A DNA stretch of 23,231 bases from the NCBI GenBank assembly GCA_964510585.1, contig CAZECW010000022.1, forward strand, positions 1 through 23,231, read 5' to 3'. Shown here in pieces: positions 1,934 to 15,491 of the stretch; the stretch's first letter is position 1; every line of letters begins with the position of its first letter. This DNA comes from an uncultured archaeon (GTDB lineage: Archaea; Asgardarchaeota; Jordiarchaeia; Jordiarchaeales; Jordiarchaeaceae). A program made the position numbers and the translations under genes. Below the pieces are notes generated by a model. The model worked only from the letters and a program-made list of their open reading frames with translations. It did no database searches and was not told where the DNA came from.

Positions 1934-3409
1934 ATGAAAAAATTTGAGGAACTGGATTCCCTGTTTCACCCCAAAGCCGCAGCTGTGGTTGGCGCAACCG
2001 AAAACCCATTCAAACACGGAAACTGGTACATGCGTTCAATACTAAACAGAGGTTTCCCAAAAGAACATCTATACCCCATAAACCCCAACGAAAAAGAAGT
2101 ACTCGGCATAAAAGCATACCCCAGAGTACAAGACGCGCCAGAACCCCTCGACTACGTCGTAGTGGCAATACCCAAAAAACTAATCAAAGAAGTTGTAAAA
2201 GACTGTGTCGAAGCCCAAGCCAAGTTTGTAATGATTTTCACATCAGGATTCTCAGAAAGCACCTCAGAAAGAGAAGAAGGCAAAAAATTAGAAAAAGAAC
2301 TCCTAGAAATAATACGCGGCACAAAAACCAGAATAGTAGGCCCCAACGGAATGGGTGTCTACTCTTTTGAGGGAAAACTTTCATACCCCTACCTATACAA
2401 TCCCCCACAAGGGGGCACAGTATCTTTTGTAAGTCAAAGTGGAGGACACACTGTTTCTATGGCCAGCTTTGCCGATTTCTGGAACAACATTCGCTTTAGC
2501 AAAATGGTTAGTTACGGCAACGGAATAGATCTGGAAGTCACAGATTACCTAGAGTATTTCGCAGAGGATCCCAAAACCAAGGTTATTAATATTTATGTTG
2601 AGGGGGTTAGAAACGGGCCCCGCTTTTTTAAAGCCTTAAAGGAAGCGACCACCATTAAACCCGTAGTTGTCTGGAAAGGAGGCTGGACTGCGGGTGGCTC
2701 ACGCGCAACCCTTTCACATACAGGTTCCCTCGCAGGTTCAAACAAAATTTGGAGTATGGTGTTGAAACAGGCGGGAGCAGTGCAGGTCTATAGCATGGAA
2801 GAGCTTTGCGATGTAACCATGGCTTTTCTTAGGCTTAATCCCCCAAAAGGGGTAAATACTGCTATTGTGGGTGCGGGTGGAGGCCTAAGCGTGGTTTCCA
2901 CAGACGCATTAGAGAGCGCTGGTTTAAGGGCTCCACCCTTTAGTGAAAAAACTAGGGAAGAATTGGGCGAAATAGTTCCTGATGTGGGAACAGGTATATC
3001 TAATCCCATAGACGCCAGTTACTTTGTCTACTATGATCTAAAAATGTATATCAAAATATTGGAATTGGTGGATAAGGATCCCAACATTGACTTGATACTG
3101 TTACAGCATGAGGTGATGTGGGGAGACAGAAACGAGGAGCTCTTCAAAATAGTCAAAGAAATCAGAGAAAGACTGGAAAAGCCTCTGGTTATCGTTTTAC
3201 ACCCTTCTAGTGGACCTAGAGAGTACCAGCCTGAGACGGAGGCTGAGCGTTTAAAAATTATAAAGCAATACCTAAATGAGGGCTTCCTCATATACCCCTC
3301 AATACCTAAAGCATCAAATGCTGTTTTTAAGGTGATACAGTACTACCAGTTTCTAAAAAATAGAGAAATTCAGAGACCACTGAAGCAGCACTTAATACTG
3401 CTTGAATAG
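1934..3409 (+). CDS. acdA: Acetate/acyl-CoA ligase (ADP-forming) alpha-subunit family, CoA-binding protein
   Basis: LFHPKAAAVVGAT CoA-binding N-terminus, IVGPNGMG, SQSGG, YGNGIDL, VVVWKGG and SHTGSLAG (phospho-His) motifs. True start is ATG 1934 after GGTGA (1921-1925); the ORF track's extension to 1682 is an alternate-frame read of the upstream gene. Confidence 0.88.
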   Translation: MKKFEELDSLFHPKAAAVVGATENPFKHGNWYMRSILNRGFPKEHLYPINPNEKEVLGIKAYPRVQDAPEPLDYVVVAIPKKLIKEVVKDCVEAQAKFVMIFTSGFSESTSEREEGKKLEKELLEIIRGTKTRIVGPNGMGVYSFEGKLSYPYLYNPPQGGTVSFVSQSGGHTVSMASFADFWNNIRFSKMVSYGNGIDLEVTDYLEYFAEDPKTKVINIYVEGVRNGPRFFKALKEATTIKPVVVWKGGWTAGGSRATLSHTGSLAGSNKIWSMVLKQAGAVQVYSMEELCDVTMAFLRLNPPKGVNTAIVGAGGGLSVVSTDALESAGLRAPPFSEKTREELGEIVPDVGTGISNPIDASYFVYYDLKMYIKILELVDKDPNIDLILLQHEVMWGDRNEELFKIVKEIRERLEKPLVIVLHPSSGPREYQPETEAERLKIIKQYLNEGFLIYPSIPKASNAVFKVIQYYQFLKNREIQRPLKQHLILLE

Positions 3410-3449: not shown

Positions 3450-3914
3450 CTATTCTTCTGTGTATGTGCCTATTGACCCCTCAGCCTCCTCCACTGAAAC
3501 CCTTATTTTCATGTTTTTGAGGGGTGACTGTTTTAGCTGTTTATAAATATATTCGGATATTTTTTCCACAGTGGTTGCCTCAATAGGCAAAAGTAATGCG
3601 TCATCCTTGGGGAAGATGTACCTCCTCCTGTTTGCTATAACCTCTATTTCTTTTCCCATCTCCCTGATTTCTACTTCCTTTTCTTTAGTGGGTATCAGTA
3701 TGTGGTGATCCATTTTCTGACAGATATCCCTCGCTACGTTTCTTACATCTAGAAAGTCCACTATCATCTGCTGACTGTTAAGTTTATCGGACTCAATCTC
3801 AATAGTTACCTTATAGTTGTGGCCGTGTATACGCTCACATTTCGGGTGACGAAGGAGGAAATGAGCCGCAGAAAAGTTTAGGTCAGTTCTTTCCACCTTA
3901 AGCTTGTAGACCAT
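3450..3914 (-). CDS. queD: 6-carboxy-5,6,7,8-tetrahydropterin synthase (6-pyruvoyl-tetrahydropterin synthase family)
   Basis: FSAAH, CERIHGHNY (Zn ligands and Cys), IVDF, MDH and TTVE motifs; lies downstream of queE on the same strand. Confidence 0.9.
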   Translation of the reverse strand: MVYKLKVERTDLNFSAAHFLLRHPKCERIHGHNYKVTIEIESDKLNSQQMIVDFLDVRNVARDICQKMDHHILIPTKEKEVEIREMGKEIEVIANRRRYIFPKDDALLLPIEATTVEKISEYIYKQLKQSPLKNMKIRVSVEEAEGSIGTYTEE

Positions 3915-4117: not shown

Positions 4118-5008
4118 TCAGAGTATTCCCAACACTTTATGGGCTTGAATTGATACTGAAATGTCATTTTTATGAAGATACTTTGCCGCGGCTTCAGTGA
4201 ACTGGAACAGTTGTTTTATTGTGGGTTTTTCCCCCACTTCGCCATATGGAGATACAATCTGAATGCATAGGGGGCATCCCAACTTAGCGAGCTCCCTAGC
4301 ATACCATTCAATATTCTCCGATTTTGTTTGGGATGTAACTACAACCTTGGCGAAGGTCTTTGCCTTTGCCTCAACTAAAACCTGTATGGTTTCCAACTCT
4401 CTCTCCACTAGGGCTCTCCAGTCTGAAGCAGCCCCCGCCGTCTCATCTTTAATATCACAGCAGCAGTATTCAAAAAGTTCAGCCACCTTTGAAGCACACC
4501 CAGGTAAAGAACCATTAGTTTCAAGATAGAGAATATAACCTTCTGAGACAAGGTTCTCTGAAACTTCCCTCAGGAAATCCGTTTGAAGTAAAGGCTCCCC
4601 ACCAGTAAATGACACCGAGTGAAGATCCGCAGTTTTCAGTTTTCTCACATAGCTGCAAAGAGTTGCTGGATCTATGGGATTTGCTTGCTCTGCGAATTTT
4701 CCAGTCCCGGGGCTTTCTTCCATTCTAACCTGAGGTGCGTCTGGTTTTTGAGCTCCAGGTGATTTGCGTCTTAGTATGTTCTATAAGATGTCGCACCACC
4801 TGCAGCCCCTAGTTCCAAACTCCCCCATAGCTAGGTTGCAGCCCGCGAATCTAGCGATTCGACGGATGAATAGCTTCTATTCCTCCTATATCTGGCGCTT
4901 TCCATAACACGAGCCGCTGACGCTACCTCCTTCTCCTTTACCTCCCCCTCTCTGGGGGATTTGGTAGGAAGAGAACACCTCAGCGACCCATCCCTTAACC
5001 AAGACCAT
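4118..5008 (-). CDS. queE: 7-carboxy-7-deazaguanine synthase QueE (radical SAM), split by three short introns; join(complement 4961..5008, 4888..4936, 4790..4857, 4118..4762), 269 aa when spliced
   Basis: Exon lengths 48+49+68+645 = 810 nt. Spliced translation begins MVLVKGWVAEVFSSYQGEGGSVSGSCYGKRQIFARFAGCNLAMGEFGTRGCRWCDSPGAQKPDAPQVRMEESPGTGKF and continues with SFTGGEPLLQ, YLETNG and DIK, all QueE motifs. The start is uncertain: ATG 5008, TTG 5002 (5 nt after GAGGTGA) or ATG 5026. Confidence 0.88.
4763..4789 (-). other. Putative BHB intron 3 of queE (27 nt)
   Basis: mRNA CAGGUG-G-UGCG-AC | A-UCUUA-UAGAACAUAC-UAAGA-CGCA-AA | U-CACCUG. Perfect 4-bp central helix UGCG/CGCA, 5-bp intron helix, 6-bp exon-exon helix; contains an in-frame TAG (4781-4783). 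Removal gives W-C-D-S-P. Confidence 0.85.
4858..4887 (-). other. Putative BHB intron 2 of queE (30 nt, phase 1)
   Basis: mRNA AGCG-CC-AGAU-AU | A-GGA-G-GAAUAG-AAG-CUAUUC-A-UCC-GUCG-AA | U-CGCU. The intron helix has 9 bp plus one mismatch; central helix AGAU/GUCG pairs 3 of 4. The unspliced frame has two TAGs. Removal gives R-Q-I-F-A-R-F-A-G-C. Confidence 0.75.
4937..4960 (-). other. Putative BHB intron 1 of queE (24 nt)
   Basis: mRNA UUCC-UACC-AA | A-UCCCCC-AGAGA-GGGGGA-GGUA-AA | GGAG. Perfect central helix UACC/GGUA and 6-bp intron helix. Removal joins the conserved Q|GEG motif. Confidence 0.82.
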
Positions 5009-5042: not shown

Positions 5043-5360
5043 TAACTTGCCTATAATTTAAGTCTGCTCCCCTCTCACACCTGTCCAAAATATGGAGTGC
5101 TCCATCGAGTCTTAAACATATAACAGTAAGTTTTTTACATTCAGGGGCCAACTCGTTTTTGGCTAGGCGTAAAGGGGACGACTCTGCTCCTGATTTCGTG
5201 AACCTCTCAGGAAAATTGGATAGAATAATTCGAAAATCAAACATAAAAAGTGGACGTCTTCTACGGTGCAGTCAAATCTTTTGTTCATAAAGCTTATGTA
5301 CTGGTTTCTACTCTGTTAGCTTGCCTGAGGCGGATTCCCATGTCTCTAGTAGGACTCTTG

Positions 5361-5762
5361 ATGGGTAAGCTGGAAATACTGCTATGCAATGCAAGGTCAA
5401 TTGAGCAAAACAGGATGATGGTTGAAAATCCAGACCCAAAAAGTTACGTGGATTCCACAGCAGTAATACTCATGAACAAGGAGGATATGGGTAGCCGCGG
5501 AATTAAAAATGGTGACTGTGTTAAAGTGACTACAAAATTTGGGAGCGTCGTTGTCAAAGCCTACCAAACAGACGAGACCAAAAAGGGATTAGCACTTATG
5601 CCCAATGGGCCATGGTTGAATGCCATAATAGACCCGGACATAGATTTTACAGGGAGTAATTCCTGCTATGTTTTGAAGGCCAGCGTTGAAACCACAAAGG
5701 AAGAAGTGTTAACTCCAGAAAAACTCTTTGGAAAACTATTGGGAAAGGATGCAGATGAGTGA
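5361..5762 (+). CDS. fwdD: Formylmethanofuran dehydrogenase subunit D-like protein (molybdopterin dinucleotide-binding domain)
   Basis: MNKEDM..GIKNGDCVKVTTKFGSVVVK and MPNGPWLNAIIDPD match the FwdD pattern. Start is taken at ATG 5361 (ATG 5340 is possible); the stop overlaps the next ATG (ATGAGTGA). Confidence 0.8.
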   Translation: MGKLEILLCNARSIEQNRMMVENPDPKSYVDSTAVILMNKEDMGSRGIKNGDCVKVTTKFGSVVVKAYQTDETKKGLALMPNGPWLNAIIDPDIDFTGSNSCYVLKASVETTKEEVLTPEKLFGKLLGKDADE

Positions 5763-7356
5763 ATCACTTCTCATAAAGAATGGCTTTGTTTTTGACCCGG
5801 CAAACAAGATAAATGGGGAACGCATGGACCTAGCCATCAAAAAAGGAGTGATAGTTGAATCAGTGAATGAAAATGAAGCCAAAATCATAGACGTTAAGGG
5901 AAAAATGGTTCTCCCCGGCGGAATAGATATTCACACCCACATAGCCTCACAACATGTGAACTTTGCACGTATGCTTTACCCCCCCTCATCCGACGAGTTT
6001 CTTTTAACCGCCCCAAACGTGGGCTTAACATATTCAAGAATGGGCTACACATTCGCCGTCGAAGCCGCAGTTTCACCAACAAAGGCTTTACACACTCACT
6101 TGGAATTCTCAGACATACCCTCACTGGATCACGCCTGCCTATTACTACTAGACGTTTACTGGTACCTATTACCCGCGGTGAGGAAAAAATCCGCAGAGGA
6201 AGCTGCGACCATAATCTCATGGCTACTGGAATCCACCAAAACCTATGGAGTAAAACTGGTAAACCCCACAGGAAGCGAAATGTGGAGCCTCAAAAAGGAA
6301 ATAAAAAACATAGAAGAACCCATAAAGCACCTCGGAGTATCCCCCCTAGACTTTATCAAAATAATAGCAGAGGCAAACGAGCGCTTGGGACTGCCACACC
6401 CCGTCCACATACATCCCAACAATGCGGGAAAACCAGGAAACTACGAAACAACACTAAAAACACTAAAAGCTCTAGAAGAAATAAAATCCAACAAAAAGAA
6501 GAGAACCATACACCTTGCACATGCACAACTACACAGCTACGGAAGAAACGAATCCATCGAGTCCCAGGCAGAACAAATAGCAGAATACATAAACAGCCAC
6601 CCCAACGTAGAAGCAGACATAGGACAAATGGTGCCCCACAAAACAATAAGCCTCTACGCAGACAACCAACTCCTAACCCAAACCAGTAGAGACAAAAAAA
6701 TATTCACTGACCAGGTTGAACTAGAAGCAGTATTTGGAGCCACACCCACCAAATATAAAATGGACAAAACTGGGAGCGTCATGTGGGCCACGGGACTGGA
6801 ACTATCACTCAAAGTAAAGGATCCCTGGCAAATCCAGCTGTCAGTAGACCACCCCAACCTAGGACTAATCACCCACTATCCCCAAATAATAGGATGGCTC
6901 CTAAGCAAAAAAGCCCGAGACCAAGTCAAACTAGAAGCCGACACACCACTACACTCCATCGATCGAGAATACACACTCTACGAAATAGCAATAATAACCC
7001 GCGCCAGCCCCGCACAATCCCTAAACCTACCAAACAAAGGAAACCTATCAGTAGGCTCAGATGCAGACATTGCAATATATGATTTCAACCCCGAAACACA
7101 AGACCCCACACATGAAACAGAGGCTCTAATCAAAGCCTTCTCCCAGACACTCTACACCATAAAAAGTGGAACAATAATAATGAAGCAAGGAGAACCACTA
7201 CTAAAGCAAAAAGGAAAAACCTACTGGGCACACAGAGATGGAATCAGCCTACCCGAAAAAGTAAAAATAGAAATGGAACGCTACTACTCACTGAACATAA
7301 ACAACCTAAAAACACCCAAAGAAATACTTCCAAACCCCCAAGAGATAAAATACTAA
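5755..7356 (+). CDS. fwdA: Formylmethanofuran dehydrogenase subunit A-like amidohydrolase
   Basis: LLIKNGFVFDP, PGGIDIHTH, GVKLVNP, GLPHPVHIHPNN.G.PGN, HLAH, SVDHPN and REYTLYEIAIITRA motifs of FwdA; start ATG 5755 is coupled to the fwdD stop. Confidence 0.85.
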   Translation: MSESLLIKNGFVFDPANKINGERMDLAIKKGVIVESVNENEAKIIDVKGKMVLPGGIDIHTHIASQHVNFARMLYPPSSDEFLLTAPNVGLTYSRMGYTFAVEAAVSPTKALHTHLEFSDIPSLDHACLLLLDVYWYLLPAVRKKSAEEAATIISWLLESTKTYGVKLVNPTGSEMWSLKKEIKNIEEPIKHLGVSPLDFIKIIAEANERLGLPHPVHIHPNNAGKPGNYETTLKTLKALEEIKSNKKKRTIHLAHAQLHSYGRNESIESQAEQIAEYINSHPNVEADIGQMVPHKTISLYADNQLLTQTSRDKKIFTDQVELEAVFGATPTKYKMDKTGSVMWATGLELSLKVKDPWQIQLSVDHPNLGLITHYPQIIGWLLSKKARDQVKLEADTPLHSIDREYTLYEIAIITRASPAQSLNLPNKGNLSVGSDADIAIYDFNPETQDPTHETEALIKAFSQTLYTIKSGTIIMKQGEPLLKQKGKTYWAHRDGISLPEKVKIEMERYYSLNINNLKTPKEILPNPQEIKY

Positions 7357-7780: not shown

Positions 7781-9304
7781 ATGCAAACTTATCCCTGGTG
7801 GACCAAAGAGCAAATAGAATTCGCCAAAGAAATAGAGCAATTCGCTACCGAAAACATACCCCGAGCTGAAGAATTATTCTGGACCAGAACCTTCCCCATG
7901 GAATTAGTAGAAAAGGCAGTAAAAAGAGGATACTTCGGAGCAGGAATTCCCAAAGAATACGGCGGCCTAGGCCTAGGCTGCACAGGAGCGTGCATAGCCT
8001 GCGAACAGCTAAACCGCATGTATGCCGTAGGCCACATACTAGTAACCAGCTACATAGGTGGACTACACCAAATCCTACACAATGGCACCGAAGAACAAAA
8101 GCAAGAATGGCTAACCAAAATGGCCAAAGGACAACTAGGAGCAGTATGCATAACCGAAATCTTCGCAGGATCAGATGCAGCCTCAGTAATGACCACCGCC
8201 GAAAAAGATGGAGACGAATGGATAATTAACGGCAAAAAAAGATTCACAACCACCGCAGGACCCGCAGAAAGATACCTCGTATACGCAAAAACAAGCGACG
8301 ACCCAGAAGCCCGAAGAAAAAACCAACACCTCACAACCTTCGTGGTGGAAAAAGGAACTCCCGGATTCCACCTAGAAAAAGTAAACCCCCTCGTTGCATT
8401 CGACAACCTCCCCAACAGCTACCTAGACTTTGACAACGTCAGAGTACCAGACTTCAACAGAATAGGACCAGTAGGCGGCGGCTGGAACATAATGATGACT
8501 GGACTCAATTTCGAGAGGTTGATTGGTGCTGCTGCGGCTGCTGGTGCTTTGGAGGATGTTATTAAGCAGGTGATTTATTATACAAGTAGACGTGTACAGT
8601 TTAGATCGCAAATCAGTGATTTTCAGCATAACCAGTTCAAGATTGCGGATATGATTACCAAGCAGCAGGTTGCCCGCCTCGTTACCTTCTATGCGGCTTA
8701 TATTATGGATATGGGTCAGATGGCGGCTATAGAGTCCGGCATTGCTAAAATGTTGAATACTGATTACGCCACCGAGATTGGCCTTGACGCCATACAATTG
8801 ATGGGTGGCGATGGTTTGACCCGCTTCTATCCCGTAGAGAGGCTGCTTCGTGAGGGTAAGATTGGCCAGATTGTGGCTGGTACTAATGAGGTTCAGAAAA
8901 TGGTCATCTACAGGATGGGCGCATTGGGCTATTTGGATTGGCCTTACAGGCTGCGGTGGAACGAAAAACTGGAGACTCCCACGTTATCTCTTGGAAAGGG
9001 ACCTTGGTACGGGAAGGAGATAACTGAGGATGTTATGCTTAAGATTTTGGCAGAGGACTACAGGTGCAACCCCGGACTCTACATGGCTATAGATGATTGT
9101 GAGAAGGAGACTGGTCTCTCAAAGGAGAAGATATTGGAGCTTTGGGCTAAGCTGGAGCAGAAGGGCTTGATAGTCACATTCAAGGACAGACGTGGGAATG
9201 TGATAATGGCTAAAGCGAACTATGTGGGTATAAGGAAAGCCTACCCCCTGGAGCACTACAAGTGGTTCCCAGACTGGTTTGACGTGGAAAAATTAGGCTT
9301 CTAG
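7781..9304 (+). CDS. Acyl-CoA dehydrogenase with a C-terminal extension of about 125 aa
   Basis: CITEIFAGSD, WIINGKKRFTT, RVQFRSQISDFQ, IQLMGGDG and GTNEVQK motifs; SD GAGGTGA at 7767-7773. Confidence 0.9.
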   Translation: MQTYPWWTKEQIEFAKEIEQFATENIPRAEELFWTRTFPMELVEKAVKRGYFGAGIPKEYGGLGLGCTGACIACEQLNRMYAVGHILVTSYIGGLHQILHNGTEEQKQEWLTKMAKGQLGAVCITEIFAGSDAASVMTTAEKDGDEWIINGKKRFTTTAGPAERYLVYAKTSDDPEARRKNQHLTTFVVEKGTPGFHLEKVNPLVAFDNLPNSYLDFDNVRVPDFNRIGPVGGGWNIMMTGLNFERLIGAAAAAGALEDVIKQVIYYTSRRVQFRSQISDFQHNQFKIADMITKQQVARLVTFYAAYIMDMGQMAAIESGIAKMLNTDYATEIGLDAIQLMGGDGLTRFYPVERLLREGKIGQIVAGTNEVQKMVIYRMGALGYLDWPYRLRWNEKLETPTLSLGKGPWYGKEITEDVMLKILAEDYRCNPGLYMAIDDCEKETGLSKEKILELWAKLEQKGLIVTFKDRRGNVIMAKANYVGIRKAYPLEHYKWFPDWFDVEKLGF

Positions 9305-11598: not shown

Positions 11599-11834
11599 TC
11601 ATGATCCTCCCTATAAAACGTTTCACTAATCCTAAAACTTTTAACCATTAATAATTATACACCTTAAACCTTTAAATCAAACCTTTAATTATCTATCGAA
11701 AACAAAAGCTTTCAAAACAAGTATGTACCAGTAAATCGGACATCAAAAATTAAAATACCATAAAAGTTTATTTATCACCTTGCACGTAGGAAATTAAAAA
11801 TAAAATTAGTTTGAACAGATTAGAGGGACTCATT

Positions 11835-12479
11835 ATGAGTGACATTTATCAAGAACTTCGGGAAGCGGTCACAAAAATTGACACCGATAAATTGGGCGAA
11901 CTCAAGGAGAAAGTTCTGAAAACCCCCAACATTGATGTTGATAAACTCGTTGAAAGTATCAGAAGCGGTTTAGAAGAAGTGGGAGCGAAGTTTGAATCTG
12001 GGGAGTACTACTTGGCGGAGCTCATTCTCATAGGCACAGAAGTATCTGAAGCTGTGCAAAAATGGAAACCTCTATTTGAAAAAAGGGAAACAAGTAAAAA
12101 AATGAAAAAGGCGGTTATTGGCACAGTAGAAGGAGACATACACGACATTGGTAAAAACATTGTGGGCATGATGCTGGCGTCCAGCGGCTTCGAGGTGGTT
12201 GATCTGGGTAACGATGTTACCCCAGAAAATTTTGTCCAAGCAGTTAAGGAAAACAAGCCGGCAATAGTAGGTATGTCCGCCCTCCTAAGCACAACACGAG
12301 ACAACATAAAGAGAACTATAGACGCCCTGAAAGAAAACAAATTACGAGAAAACGTGAAGATAATAGTGGGTGGAGCTGCCGTGGACGAAGACTTCGCAAA
12401 GGCTGCGGGGGCAGATGGTTTTGCAACCAATGCTGCTGATGCGGTTCCACTGGTTGAAGACCTTTTAGGAGGCATATAA
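11835..12479 (+). CDS. Corrinoid (cobalamin-binding) methyl-carrier protein, MtaC/MttC family
   Basis: B12-binding cap (GLEEVGAKFESGEYYLAEL), DIHDIGKNIV (DxHxxG), GMSALL and IIVGGA motifs; start taken at ATG 11835. Confidence 0.9.
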   Translation: MSDIYQELREAVTKIDTDKLGELKEKVLKTPNIDVDKLVESIRSGLEEVGAKFESGEYYLAELILIGTEVSEAVQKWKPLFEKRETSKKMKKAVIGTVEGDIHDIGKNIVGMMLASSGFEVVDLGNDVTPENFVQAVKENKPAIVGMSALLSTTRDNIKRTIDALKENKLRENVKIIVGGAAVDEDFAKAAGADGFATNAADAVPLVEDLLGGI

Positions 12480-12480
12480 T

Positions 12481-13653
12481 TTGGCAAATCTTTCACCTCG
12501 AGAAAGAGTAGAGATGGTTGTAAACCACGAGGAGCCTGACCGGGTGCCGGTAGATTTTGGTGGGATGAACACCTCAATCTATGAAATGCCCGAGTGGTGG
12601 CCTAAAAAGGCTCCCTACTTTGGATATAAGGCCCTAGTTGACTATCTTGGCCTTAAGGATGTGCCTAAACCCTACTTGAATTCTGGAAATTGTGTAATAA
12701 ATGTGGATGAGAGGATACTTAATAGGTACGGGGTAGATTTCCAGTACCTTTACATGTCTATACCCAAACCTAAGATGCACCCTGATGGAACTATTGAAAC
12801 CATCTATGGTTTGAAAGTTAAACCAGTAGGTTACTACTTGGAGGTTTACGATCCTCCTCTCGCGGGAAAAATCACCACCAAAGACATAGACAACTTTAAA
12901 TGGCCTGACCCAGAGGATCCCGTGTTTTCAAACAAGGCCAAGGAACGTGTGCTTAGGATGAGAAAGAATAGCGATAGAGTAATTGTTGCCCTAGCCTCAT
13001 TTGCTGAACAAATATTTCAAAACTATGCTTGGATTCGTGGGTTTACCCAGATGATGCTTGATATGCAGAGAGAACCAGAACTCTTCCACTATCTAACTGA
13101 CACCCTGCTTACAGTAGAGGAGGGAATAATAGAAGCTTTCTACACTGAGGTGGGTGAACACATAGACTTCGCATACATTGCTGAAGATATGGGCACCCAA
13201 CAGGCGCCATTCGTCTCACCAAAACAGTACGAAAAGTTCTGGAAACCATACCACAAAAGAATGATAAAACACATCAAACAGTTCACAGACGCAAGAATAA
13301 TGTGGCACTGCTGCGGAGCAGTTGCACCACTAATTCCCCACCTAATAGACCTCGGTGTAGACATACTTCAGGTTATCCAGCCTCTAGCTAAAGGAATGGA
13401 TCCAGAATCCCTCAAAAAGTCTTTTGGACACAAGCTAACTTTCGATGGAGGCATAGATGTACAAAGACTTCTACCAAAAGCTAGTCCTGAAGAGATTAAA
13501 GCAGAATGCAAAAGAGTAATTGAAATTCTAGGCAGAGGCGGCGGATACGTTTTTGCACCAGCACACAACATTCAGCCAGACACCCCACCCCAGAACGTGG
13601 TAGCCATGCTCGAAGCAGGAATCGAATACGGCAAATATCCCCTAGGAAAATAA
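12481..13653 (+). CDS. Uroporphyrinogen decarboxylase / MtaA-CmuA family methyltransferase-like protein
   Basis: PRERV....EEPDRVP N-terminus, EDMGTQ..PFVSP, WHCCG, FDGGIDVQ and GGGYVFAPAHNIQPDTP; TTG start after GGAGG. Confidence 0.85.
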   Translation: MANLSPRERVEMVVNHEEPDRVPVDFGGMNTSIYEMPEWWPKKAPYFGYKALVDYLGLKDVPKPYLNSGNCVINVDERILNRYGVDFQYLYMSIPKPKMHPDGTIETIYGLKVKPVGYYLEVYDPPLAGKITTKDIDNFKWPDPEDPVFSNKAKERVLRMRKNSDRVIVALASFAEQIFQNYAWIRGFTQMMLDMQREPELFHYLTDTLLTVEEGIIEAFYTEVGEHIDFAYIAEDMGTQQAPFVSPKQYEKFWKPYHKRMIKHIKQFTDARIMWHCCGAVAPLIPHLIDLGVDILQVIQPLAKGMDPESLKKSFGHKLTFDGGIDVQRLLPKASPEEIKAECKRVIEILGRGGGYVFAPAHNIQPDTPPQNVVAMLEAGIEYGKYPLGK

Positions 13654-13792
13654 CTCATCTTCTCTCATCTTAACCAAAACAAAATAAATAAAAGATAAGC
13701 GTAAAAAGGTTTGAAGAGTCAGATAGAGACAAGCTTGTTAGAATAAGATTTGGAACTAACAATAGAATTATTGGGAAAAGTTTTGAAAATCG

Positions 13793-14446
13793 TTGGTGAG
13801 AACCACGTCATCCAAAGAAGAGCTATTGAAGAAGATAGCTGATGCTGTCGTAAATCTGAATGTTGAAGAAGCTAAAAAGAATGCAGAAGAGGCATTAAAG
13901 TCAGGAATTTCCCCACTTGAAGCCATAAATGAAGGGTTTGTCAAGGGGCTTCGAAGGGTTGGAGAACTCTTTGAAAATAAGGAGTATTTCCTCGCAGACA
14001 TGATTATGGCTGCTGAAGCCTTTAAGGCAGGTATGGAGGTTTTAACGCCTCACATTAAAAAACATGGAAAGAAGAGGGGTGTAATAGTAATTGGGACGGT
14101 TAAGGACGATATACACGACCTTGGCAAGAATATCGTAACAACCCTACTTGCCTCCGAGGGTTACGAAGTTCACGACCTGGGCATAGACGTCTCCGCGGAA
14201 GAGTTTGTAAAGAAAGCCCAGATAGTTAAAGCGGATATAGTTGGCCTTAGTGCGTTGTTGACGACGACCATGGAGCGCATACCTGAGGTGATCGAAGCCT
14301 TAAAGGAAGCGGGGCTAGATAAAGTTAAAGTAATTGTGGGCGGTAGACCTGTTACCCCAGAGTTCGCTAGGGAGGTTGGTGCAGACGCCTACTGTGAAGA
14401 CGCTATAAAGGCATTAGATGTTGTTAAAAGACTTTTGGAGGGCTAG
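13793..14446 (+). CDS. Second corrinoid methyl-carrier protein, MtaC/MttC family
   Basis: GLRRVGELFENKEYFLADM, DDIHDLGKNIV, GLSALLTTT and VIVGGRP motifs; start TTG 13793 or GTG 13796. Confidence 0.9.
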   Translation: MVRTTSSKEELLKKIADAVVNLNVEEAKKNAEEALKSGISPLEAINEGFVKGLRRVGELFENKEYFLADMIMAAEAFKAGMEVLTPHIKKHGKKRGVIVIGTVKDDIHDLGKNIVTTLLASEGYEVHDLGIDVSAEEFVKKAQIVKADIVGLSALLTTTMERIPEVIEALKEAGLDKVKVIVGGRPVTPEFAREVGADAYCEDAIKALDVVKRLLEG

Positions 14447-14450
14447 AAGC

Positions 14451-15491
14451 GTGTCGTCGGTTTTAGAACGTGTTCTTGTAACTTTAAGCTTCAAGGAACC
14501 TGAGTGGGTTCCTGTAATTCTCTTTCCCGAGTGGGATTTTCTAGCTGATCTTTATGGTGTGCCTTTAAAGAAGCTTCTTGAGGATCCAATGTTACAAATT
14601 GATGCCGGTGAAAAAATGAGGCAGCGCTTCCCTGAAGCATTTATAGCGACATCAGTATGGGTTCCTTACGCTCATGCTTCAGGCTTCGGATGCCAGCTAT
14701 CTGAACCTGAAGACGAAATTCCGGGTGTCAAAAAGGTTGCTGTAATTACTCCCGAAGATATTGACTCTTTGGAAATTCCCGACCCTCAGAGCGATGGTCT
14801 AATGCCCAAATACTTAGAGTATCTTAAGATTCAGCAGAAAGTTAAGGGGAGCTCTGGAATCGGAGACTTTGGTCCGGTGGAGCTTGCCTGTGAAATTATG
14901 GGTTATACCAATTTCCTTAAACTCATTTCCCAGAATCCCAAATACGCCCACAAACTGCTGGAAATTACCGTGAAGTCTTGTACAAACTGGTTCAATACCC
15001 TCATTGATGTTATTGGTGGCTCCGCCCTCTTTGTATTGGTGAGTGATCACACAACGGGTTTTCTGAGAGCCAAGCAGTGCCAAGAATTCTTCACACCATA
15101 CCTGAAAAAGTTTCTAGACAATATTAGAAGTAAAGTAAGCATTATCCTATACCACAATGAAAACTATGCGGCACATGTTCTAGATCAAATAGAACAGATG
15201 AAAATAAACATTTTCCACTGTGGTGAAATAGGAGACCTAGAAACAGCAAAGAAAAAAACATATGGAAAGTACACCCTAATGGGCAACATCCACCCCCGAG
15301 ACGTAATGCTCAGAGGAACGCCCCAGCTGGTTGAAGAGACCTGCAAAGAGGTAATCCAGAAACTGGGACCAGGAGGCGGATTCATACTCTCCACTGGAGG
15401 AGGTGTAAGCAGAAATATTCCTCTCCACCATGTGGATCTCCTTGTAGAATGTGCAAAAAAGTACGGGAAATCTCCAATAAAGACAGCGTAG
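14451..15491 (+). CDS. Second UroD / MtaA-family protein
   Basis: ERV....FKEPEWVPV, DGLMP..LE, LMGNIHP...LRGTP..V and GPGGGFILST motifs; GTG 14451 follows GGAGGG. Confidence 0.8.
   Translation: MSSVLERVLVTLSFKEPEWVPVILFPEWDFLADLYGVPLKKLLEDPMLQIDAGEKMRQRFPEAFIATSVWVPYAHASGFGCQLSEPEDEIPGVKKVAVITPEDIDSLEIPDPQSDGLMPKYLEYLKIQQKVKGSSGIGDFGPVELACEIMGYTNFLKLISQNPKYAHKLLEITVKSCTNWFNTLIDVIGGSALFVLVSDHTTGFLRAKQCQEFFTPYLKKFLDNIRSKVSIILYHNENYAAHVLDQIEQMKINIFHCGEIGDLETAKKKTYGKYTLMGNIHPRDVMLRGTPQLVEETCKEVIQKLGPGGGFILSTGGGVSRNIPLHHVDLLVECAKKYGKSPIKTA

What the first reader, a model, noticed from the sequence alone, without database searches (positions are those of the whole stretch)
4118..5008. Archaeal protein-coding gene (queE) apparently split by three tRNA-type bulge-helix-bulge introns
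Seen in sequence: the annotated 201-aa ORF lacks the radical-SAM cysteines. The upstream same-frame sequence reads KGWVAEVFSSYQ[IPQRGGGK]GEGGSVSGSCYGKRQI[*EE*KLFIRR]...ARFAGCNL...CRWCD[IL*NILRRK]SPG. The three insertions (24, 30, 27 nt) each fold with their flanks as 4-bp helix / 3-nt bulge / intron hairpin. Cutting after the second bulge nucleotide, the known EndA rule, gives exactly the junctions that restore QueE motifs (Q|GEG, QIF|ARFAGC, WCD|S). Established: BHB introns are excised by archaeal tRNA splicing endonuclease EndA and ligated by RtcB. They are common in tRNA and rRNA, and the classic mRNA case is the single cbf5 intron of some Crenarchaeota. Inference: this is a multi-intron archaeal mRNA, which I do not know to be described, and QueE (preQ0/archaeosine pathway) expression would depend on the tRNA-splicing machinery. 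Like cbf5, QueE serves RNA modification, which hints at coupling between tRNA processing capacity and tRNA modification.
Basis: partly seen in the sequence, partly recalled or inferred. Interest (0 to 1): 0.97.

Follow-up and report, generated by a model that had tools for sequence, protein, structure and literature searches.

The report
Three tRNA-type introns in archaeal queE
The queE gene of this hot-spring Asgard archaeon is not broken: it is split into four exons by three tiny (24-30 base) tRNA-style introns that all 11 sampled genomes of its class keep at the same codons, the most heavily split archaeal protein gene I could find described.

Summary

- **Gene structure.** queE lies on the minus strand (5002..4118). 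It is interrupted by inserts at 4937-4960 (24 nt), 4858-4887 (30 nt) and 4763-4789 (27 nt).
- **One rule fits every case.** Take a 4-bp helix flanked by 3-nt bulges and cut after the second bulge base. This restores an uninterrupted QueE frame in 33 of 33 inserts across all 11 genomes of the class (Jordarchaeia/Freyarchaeia; 3 genera).
- **Not read-through or recoding.** 17 of the 33 insert lengths are not multiples of 3.
- **Not a pseudogene.** The short exons are under strong purifying selection (dN/dS 0.05-0.2). No second queE copy was found.
- **Structure is conserved.** The intron hairpin arms covary.
- **Good protein fit.** The spliced protein aligns without gaps across all three junctions to a profile of 93 intact QueE homologues.
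- **Lineage-specific.** All 41 queE genes found elsewhere in the phylum are uninterrupted.
- **Machinery present.** The genome encodes two EndA paralogues (alpha-beta type) and RtcB.
- **Caveat.** Intron 2 has a relaxed motif in this genus.

This scan had already noted single BHB introns in other protein genes of this same genome, and two-intron genes in other genomes. A three-intron gene was not among the notes I was shown. In the literature I searched, only cbf5 has such an intron in its coding region.

The parts
4961..5002 (-). queE exon 1 (about 14 codons, ...KGWVAEVFSSYQ). The start is probably TTG 5002-5000, downstream of a conserved GAGGTG. ATG 5008 or ATG 5026 are alternatives.
   Evidence: The profile alignment starts at VKGW. 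GAGGTG lies upstream in all 6 genomes of this genus and a similar purine-rich motif in the sister family (read). The choice of start codon is an inference.
4937..4960 (-). Intron 1, 24 nt, phase 0, between Q and GEG. Central helix TACC/GGTA, bulges AAA and AAG, 6-bp inner hairpin.
   Evidence: The central helix has 4 of 4 pairs in 11 of 11 genomes. Five of six hairpin pairs show changes on both sides. Lengths are 20-26 nt across genomes.
4888..4936 (-). queE exon 2 (49 nt; GEGGSVSGSCYGKRQI plus the first base of the Phe codon).
4858..4887 (-). Intron 2, 30 nt, phase 1 (splits the Phe codon T|TC). Carries two TAG stops. Helix AGAT/GTCG (3 of 4 pairs here), bulges ATA and AAT, 9-10 bp inner hairpin. 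Relaxed BHB in this genus.
   Evidence: The helix is CGAT/GTCG (4 of 4) in the sister family. Pair 18-36 switches from A-U to C-G between families. Lengths are 18-30 nt.
4790..4857 (-). queE exon 3 (68 nt; the rest of the Phe codon, then ARFAGCNLAMGEFGTRGCRWCD, the Cx11CxxC radical-SAM cluster motif).
4763..4789 (-). Intron 3, 27 nt, phase 0, directly after WCD. Carries one TAG. Helix TGCG/CGCA, bulges ACA and AAT, 5-bp inner hairpin, 7-bp exon-exon outer helix.
   Evidence: z -3.1. Lengths are 15-30 nt across genomes. The BHB forms in the global minimum-energy fold.
4118..4762 (-). queE exon 4 (SPGAQK... to the TGA stop at 4120-4118). It contains the annotated 201-aa ORF (4723..4118).
3450..3914 (-). 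queD (6-carboxytetrahydropterin synthase family), immediately downstream on the same strand. It is the pathway partner of queE.
   Evidence: PF01242, 87.6 bits; TIGR03367, 83 bits, just under its cut-off.

Best explanation
queE is a functional four-exon gene. Its pre-mRNA carries three independent bulge-helix-bulge (BHB) introns within the first 150 coding bases.

Each intron, together with its neighbouring exon bases, forms:
- an exon-exon outer helix;
- a 4-bp central helix (5' strand from the exon, 3' strand from the intron);
- two roughly 3-nt A-initial bulges;
- an intron hairpin.

The archaeal splicing endonuclease is here probably an (alpha-beta)2 heterotetramer with relaxed specificity. 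It would cut after the second base of each bulge, and RtcB would join the exons. The product is a 267-residue QueE-family radical-SAM enzyme, probably the 7-carboxy-7-deazaguanine synthase of the preQ0/archaeosine pathway.

Shown: the anatomy, conservation, covariation, selection on the exons, and presence of the enzyme genes.

Inferred: the cleavage and ligation themselves, the enzyme architecture, and the QueE activity.

The introns were probably gained before the two sampled families of the class diverged.
For: 1. The spliced N-terminus is colinear with intact QueE homologues. Against a profile of 93 intact homologues, the spliced protein scores 397.9 bits, with no gap at any of the three junctions or anywhere in the first 228 residues. 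The read-through scores 349.8 bits and the annotated ORF 268.3 bits.
2. The same rule restores the frame in 33 of 33 inserts in 11 genomes. In each genome, the part of exons 1-3 from the conserved GW to WCD totals exactly 150 nt. 17 of the 33 lengths are not multiples of 3.
3. Covariation supports the structure. For intron 1, 94% of cells are paired against 57-67% when partners are slid, and 5 of 6 hairpin pairs change on both sides. For intron 2, the figures are 93% against 28-64%.
4. dN/dS of exons 1-3 is 0.05-0.22, with synonymous sites near saturation between families.
5. In the phylum survey, 41 of 41 queE matches outside the class are uninterrupted and 11 of 11 inside it are interrupted.
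6. G000 has a single queE match.
7. Two EndA paralogues are present. One is closest to the Aeropyrum catalytic subunit 3p1z_B (E 3e-45). The other has, read by eye against the first, SKSL where that one has its DHAP histidine motif. RtcB is present.
8. hypD, ppsA and rtcB of the same genome obey the same rule.
9. The insert-bearing DNA is present in independent hot-spring runs.
10. The cut position between the 2nd and 3rd bulge residues, and relaxed BHBs cut by hetero-oligomeric EndA, are documented for cbf5 (PMC2738675).
Against: - There is no RNA evidence. No run on record as RNA holds the locus.
- Local fold z-scores of introns 1 and 2 are not significant on their own.
- In this genus, intron 2 has a mismatched central helix and its 3' site lies in a loop or a competing hairpin, not a clean bulge.
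- QueE identity rests on weak matches to curated QueE models, one PDB match of a homologue (4njg), motifs, and the queD neighbour. No curated cut-off is reached.
Confidence: 0.88

Rival explanations
1. Decaying pseudogene. The N-terminal part of queE is dead, and only the 201-aa ORF (or nothing) is made.
For: The annotated ORF lacks the Cys cluster. Three TAG stops lie upstream in frame.
Against: - The upstream exons are under strong purifying selection in 11 genomes (dN/dS 0.05-0.22).
- The inserts sit at identical codons in two families.
- No frameshift or stop occurs outside the three inserts.
- No second copy was found.
Confidence: 0.02
2. The inserts are translated. TAG would be read through or recoded (for example as pyrrolysine, which has been reported for some Jordarchaeia), giving a QueE with three extra loops.
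For: In this genome all three inserts are multiples of 3 and all stops are TAG. Stop recoding has been described in this class (PMC9723677).
Against: - In the relatives, 17 of 33 inserts shift the frame, and TAA and TGA stops occur.
- No PylS reaches the cut-off in G000 (42 bits against 178).
- The inserts would split the QGEG and CxxCD motifs.
- The read-through scores 48 bits lower than the spliced form.
Confidence: 0.02
3. Programmed translational bypassing. Ribosomes would hop over the hairpin-containing gaps, as in T4 gene 60, with no RNA cut.
For: The gaps are short, contain hairpins, and carry stops near the take-off side in introns 2 and 3.
Against: - No matching take-off and landing codons are present. 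The codon before intron 1 is CAA and the intron ends GGTAAA.
- Intron 2 splits a codon (T|TC), which hopping cannot rebuild.
- What is conserved is the 4-bp helix and the bulges that include exon bases. That is the EndA substrate, not a bypass signal.
Confidence: 0.03
4. Real RNA-level excision, but by a nuclease or ligase other than EndA and RtcB, or with junctions shifted by a base or two.
For: Cleavage was not tested. Intron 2 of this genus departs from a strict BHB.
Against: The uniform BHB rule alone predicts all 33 junctions. The relaxed forms are of the kind that hetero-oligomeric EndA cuts in cbf5 (PMC2738675).
Confidence: 0.04
5. Assembly or sequencing artefact.
For: None beyond the fact that the genome is metagenome-assembled.
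Against: Eleven genomes, including a single-contig genome, carry the inserts. So do contigs of independent runs, at 100% and about 94-97% identity.
Confidence: 0.01

Closest known systems
cbf5 pre-mRNA intron of Desulfurococcales and Sulfolobales (Watanabe 2002; Yokobori 2009, PMC2738675)
   Same: - A BHB or relaxed-BHB intron inside a coding sequence.
- The cut lies between the 2nd and 3rd bulge residues.
- It depends on hetero-oligomeric EndA.
- The host gene serves RNA modification.
- The position is conserved across orders.
   Different: - cbf5 has one intron per gene; queE has three within 150 coding bases, with exons of only 49 and 68 nt.
- The host gene is different (queE).
- The phylum is different (Asgard).
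- Splicing of cbf5 is experimentally shown; here it is not.
Multi-intron tRNA genes of Freyarchaeia and Atabeyarchaeia (Valentin-Alvarado 2024, PMC11291895; preprint 10.64898/2026.10.13.758758)
   Same: - Same lineage.
- Same motif and presumably the same enzymes.
- Several short introns per gene, at positions where exon sequence can supply half of the motif.
   Different: The host is an mRNA. Excision must therefore preserve a reading frame and has to be reconciled with translation. Neither paper reports introns in protein genes.
BHB intron in the 5' UTR of Haloferax volcanii HVO_1309 (Schwarz 2020, PMC7714728)
   Same: An mRNA substrate of archaeal EndA.
   Different: It lies in the untranslated leader, is a single intron, and is not needed to restore a reading frame.
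HAC1/XBP1 unconventional splicing in eukaryotes (IRE1 cleavage; ligation by Trl1 in yeast or RtcB in animals) - from my own knowledge
   Same: Spliceosome-independent removal of a short intron from an mRNA at stem-loop sites. In animals the exons are joined by RtcB.
   Different: The endonuclease is IRE1, not EndA. It removes one intron and is a stress-regulated switch.

Membership tests
Archaeal BHB (tRNA-type) intron | [quoted passage not shown] | tested here: met
   - Introns 1 and 3: 4 of 4 central pairs, bulges AAA/AAG and ACA/AAT, with inner and outer helices.
- Intron 2: 3 of 4 pairs and a loose 3' side in this genus, 4 of 4 pairs in the sister family. This is a relaxed BHB.
Archaeal BHB (tRNA-type) intron | Cutting between the 2nd and 3rd bulge residues yields the functional junction | tested here: met
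   33 of 33 predicted junctions restore a QueE frame that is colinear with intact homologues. The cleavage itself is inferred.
Archaeal BHB (tRNA-type) intron | The structure, not the sequence, is conserved (compensatory changes) | tested here: met
   Cells with changes on both sides: 18 observed against a shuffled mean of 6.8, and 9 against 4.1. Slid controls are far lower. Relatedness inflates the shuffle test, so the slid controls and the per-pair pair types are the firmer evidence.
Archaeal BHB (tRNA-type) intron | The host encodes the splicing endonuclease and the RtcB ligase | tested here: met
   The (alpha-beta)2 architecture is inferred from the two paralogues, one of which appears, read by eye, to lack the catalytic His.
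Archaeal BHB (tRNA-type) intron | Excision seen in RNA (junction reads, circular intron) | not testable with these tools
   No run on record as RNA holds the locus.
QueE (7-carboxy-7-deazaguanine synthase, radical SAM) | Radical-SAM Cys cluster motif and the N-terminal QGEG motif | tested here: met
   After splicing, the protein reads FSSYQGEGG ... RFAGC-x11-C-x2-CD. An intact homologue aligns these motifs to the Burkholderia QueE structure 4njg.
QueE (7-carboxy-7-deazaguanine synthase, radical SAM) | Reaches a curated family cut-off | tested here: not met
   The read-through reaches 30 bits against TIGR04508, whose cut-off is 240. Intact archaeal homologues, including the Palaeococcus protein, also reach only 40-59 bits, so this archaeal subfamily has no curated model. 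The spliced protein itself could not be submitted. I therefore file it as QueE-family, probable QueE.
QueE (7-carboxy-7-deazaguanine synthase, radical SAM) | Pathway context | tested here: met
   queD lies directly downstream on the same strand.

The most novel reading that the evidence does not exclude
In Jordarchaeia/Freyarchaeia the tRNA-splicing machinery may act as a general mRNA-splicing system. These are Asgard relatives of eukaryotes whose tRNA genes are almost all interrupted. Their genes can have true multi-exon architecture, with four exons and internal exons under 70 nt. Even rtcB, the ligase gene, needs splicing. In these cells, translation of many essential messages would have to wait for, or be tuned by, RNA splicing.
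Probability: 0.75. Interest if true: 0.9.

Novelty: new variant of a known kind. Interest (0 to 1): 0.8.

Why it matters
In the published work I could search, an archaeal coding sequence interrupted by a BHB intron is known only for cbf5, with a single intron. A gene needing three splicing events to make one enzyme has several consequences.

- **Mechanism.** EndA/RtcB splicing can support a multi-exon protein gene in a prokaryote, and in the lineage closest to eukaryotes.
- **Coupling.** It raises the question of how splicing is ordered relative to coupled transcription and translation. All three introns lie in the first 150 coding bases.
- **Annotation.** Such genes are currently annotated as truncated "radical SAM proteins", so metabolic reconstructions of these Asgard genomes will under-count pathways.
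- **Testability.** The locus gives a compact 261-nt substrate with three sites for biochemical tests of Asgard EndA specificity.

Tried and rejected
1. **RNA evidence.** No RNA holder was listed for the window or for the wetland relative L005. Contigs of two runs labelled metatranscriptomic but flagged as probably DNA cover the locus unspliced, together with intergenic DNA. I do not count this either way.
2. **Genome-wide census.** I searched for BHB candidates whose removal rescues an ORF. Real hits never exceeded mirror-repeat decoys (681 against 1051; 207 against 286). The scan recovered queE intron 3 but missed hypD and ppsA. The method is too crude, so I give no estimate of intron number.
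3. **Strict contiguous-helix BHB scanner on the loci.** It missed true introns because their outer helices are irregular.
4. **MAFFT alignment of intron 3.** It misaligned the 3' half between families. I therefore tabulated intron 3 by position relative to the cut sites.
5. **Mobile-element origin.** The introns have no other copies in the genome.
6. **Rfam and ARAGORN on the window.** Nothing was found.
7. **A possible interruption of the URO-D-like gene at 12481-13653.** Rejected, because it aligns end to end with its paralogue.
8. **Curated-library scan of the spliced protein.** The spliced protein has no reference, so I did not send it to the curated libraries. I scored it locally instead.

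Full report
**What is there**

The window is contig C22 of a 3.78-Mb Asgard genome that is 96% complete. Source names of near-identical proteins place it in Freyarchaeota/Jordarchaeales.

It has three in-frame inserts carrying TAG stops. The only ORF a gene caller would keep is 4723..4118 (201 aa), which begins after the radical-SAM cysteines. queD follows directly on the same strand at 3914..3450.

**Are the inserts introns?**

A tblastn of an intact homologue (P0014) against the locus shows three clean gaps exactly at the inserts.

I searched all 11 genomes of the class, covering 2 families and 3 genera. Each has one queE, and each is interrupted at the same three codons.

I then applied one rule to every insert: a 4-bp helix H/H', 3-nt bulges, and a cut after the second bulge base. 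Results:
- 33 of 33 excisions restore an open frame.
- In every genome, the part of exons 1-3 from the conserved GW to WCD totals exactly 150 nt.
- Insert lengths are 20-26 nt for intron 1, 18-30 nt for intron 2 and 15-30 nt for intron 3.
- 17 of the 33 lengths are not multiples of 3, and relatives carry TAA and TGA stops as well.

These results exclude read-through, recoding and translated loops. In addition, no PylS reaches its cut-off in this genome.

The exons are clearly coding. dN/dS of exons 1-3 is 0.05-0.22, while synonymous sites approach saturation between families. That excludes a pseudogene.

I built a profile from 93 intact homologues. Scores against it:
- spliced 267-aa protein: 397.9 bits, with no gap at any of the three junctions or anywhere in the first 228 residues;
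- read-through: 349.8 bits;
- annotated ORF: 268.3 bits.

**Structure**

Introns 1 and 3 form the full motif: an outer exon-exon helix, a central 4-bp helix (TACC/GGTA and TGCG/CGCA), bulges (AAA/AAG and ACA/AAT) and an inner hairpin. They form it in local folds and in the global fold of the 261-nt 5' region, which has z -5.5.

Intron 2 is relaxed in this genus. Its helix AGAT/GTCG has one mismatch, and its 3' site lies in a loop or a competing exon hairpin. In the sister family the helix is CGAT/GTCG with a GCGGA/UCCGC outer helix.

Covariation is clear:
- Intron 1: 94% of cells are paired against 57-67% in slid controls. Five of six hairpin pairs change on both sides.
- Intron 2: 93% against 28-64%. 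Pair 18-36 switches from A-U to C-G between families.

All 66 bulges begin with A.

Single-sequence z-scores for introns 1 and 2 are weak. The case therefore rests on comparative evidence.

**Machinery**

The genome has two EndA-domain genes.
- One is closest to the catalytic subunit of the Aeropyrum heterotetramer (3p1z_B, E 3e-45).
- The other is divergent. Read by eye against the first paralogue, it has SKSL where that one has its DHAP histidine motif.

This fits the (alpha-beta)2 type, which is known to cut relaxed BHBs, including that of cbf5 (PMC2738675; PMC5829648 abstract). A 2026 preprint reports two paralogues in 44 of 60 Asgard genomes. RtcB is present.

**Distribution**

Among 251 sampled genomes of the phylum, 52 have queE. 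The 41 outside this class are all uninterrupted, and the 11 inside it are all interrupted. The simplest reading is that the three introns were gained before the two families split and have been kept since. This is an inference.

The introns have no other copies in the genome.

**Artefact?**

No. The insert-bearing DNA occurs in a single-contig genome (G006). It also occurs in contigs of independent hot-spring runs at 100% and about 94-97% identity. In one variant, most of the changes within the gene's 5' part cluster in the loop of intron 2.

**Context**

hypD and ppsA of the same genome obey the same rule; I re-derived both here from the genome. So does rtcB itself, with a 30-nt insert carrying a TGA between LPD and AHQGYG and a central helix CCCG/CGGG.

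ARAGORN finds only 6 tRNA genes in 3.8 Mb. This is consistent with the published finding that 92-95% of tRNA genes in this lineage are interrupted (PMC11291895).

Earlier notes of this scan list further single-intron genes in this genome and two-intron genes (rtcB, aIF5B) in other archaea. These are unpublished, mostly unchecked leads.

**Literature**

The searchable literature names cbf5 as the only coding-region case and HVO_1309 as a 5'-UTR case (PMC7714728; PMC2738675). The two papers on Asgard tRNA introns do not mention introns in protein genes.

**What is not shown**

- Excision in RNA. No run on record as RNA holds the locus.
- The enzyme's activity on these substrates.
- QueE catalysis. 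The assignment is by motifs, a homologue's match to the QueE structure 4njg, weak hits to curated QueE models and the queD neighbour.
- The start codon. TTG 5002, ATG 5008 and ATG 5026 are all possible.
- The regulatory idea that tRNA-processing capacity gates tRNA modification. This remains speculation.

**Verdict**

This is a real, conserved, three-intron BHB architecture in a protein gene. The mechanism is a known kind (EndA/RtcB). The host gene, the lineage and the multi-intron layout are new.

Noticed in passing
L020:1561-1590 (= G000 contig C58:3762-3791, plus strand): rtcB, the splicing ligase gene, carries a 30-nt insert with an in-frame TGA between LPD and AHQGYG. Its central helix is CCCG/CGGG and its bulges are ACA and AAG. 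The same cut rule restores the conserved motif, so the ligase message itself appears to need splicing.
   Followed up: partly
G000 contigs C97 (about 2575-2625, plus strand) and C56 (about 9195-9235, plus strand): hypD and ppsA each carry one BHB insert obeying the same rule. The helices are CGGG/CCCG and GAGG/CCTC. I re-derived both from the genome sequence.
   Followed up: partly
L007:2120-2162 (minus strand), intron 3 of a sister-family genome: Here intron 3 is only 15 nt, in frame and free of stops (it would encode SKKRK). The message would be readable whether spliced or not. This may be an intron becoming coding sequence, or an alternative protein form.
   Followed up: no
All 33 queE introns (L001-L011): Every bulge, 5' and 3', begins with A (66 of 66). 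The exon half of each central helix lies in codons for invariant residues (Y-Q, I, C-D). All three introns lie within the first 150 coding bases. The hypD and rtcB introns are also near the 5' end of their genes, hinting at a 5' bias.
   Followed up: no
Whole genome G000: ARAGORN recognises only 6 tRNA genes in 3.78 Mb, 4 of them called with introns and some of those calls implausible. Standard finders evidently miss most tRNA genes here.
   Followed up: no
L019:1192-1788 (G000 contig C126): The second EndA paralogue has an acidic N-terminal extension of about 25 residues. Read by eye against the first paralogue, it appears to lack the catalytic histidine, suggesting a structural beta-like subunit.
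   Followed up: partly
window 5250-7356 (plus strand): A molybdopterin-binding-domain ORF (170 aa) overlaps the start of an amidohydrolase-family ORF (542 aa) by 35 nt. The pair resembles formylmethanofuran dehydrogenase subunits D and A. My BHB scan flagged 5750-5795, but this looks like an ordinary gene boundary.
   Followed up: no
window 11811-15491 (plus strand): Two tandem pairs, each a corrinoid (B12-binding) protein followed by a URO-D/MtaA-like methyltransferase. This suggests methyl-transfer metabolism.
   Followed up: no
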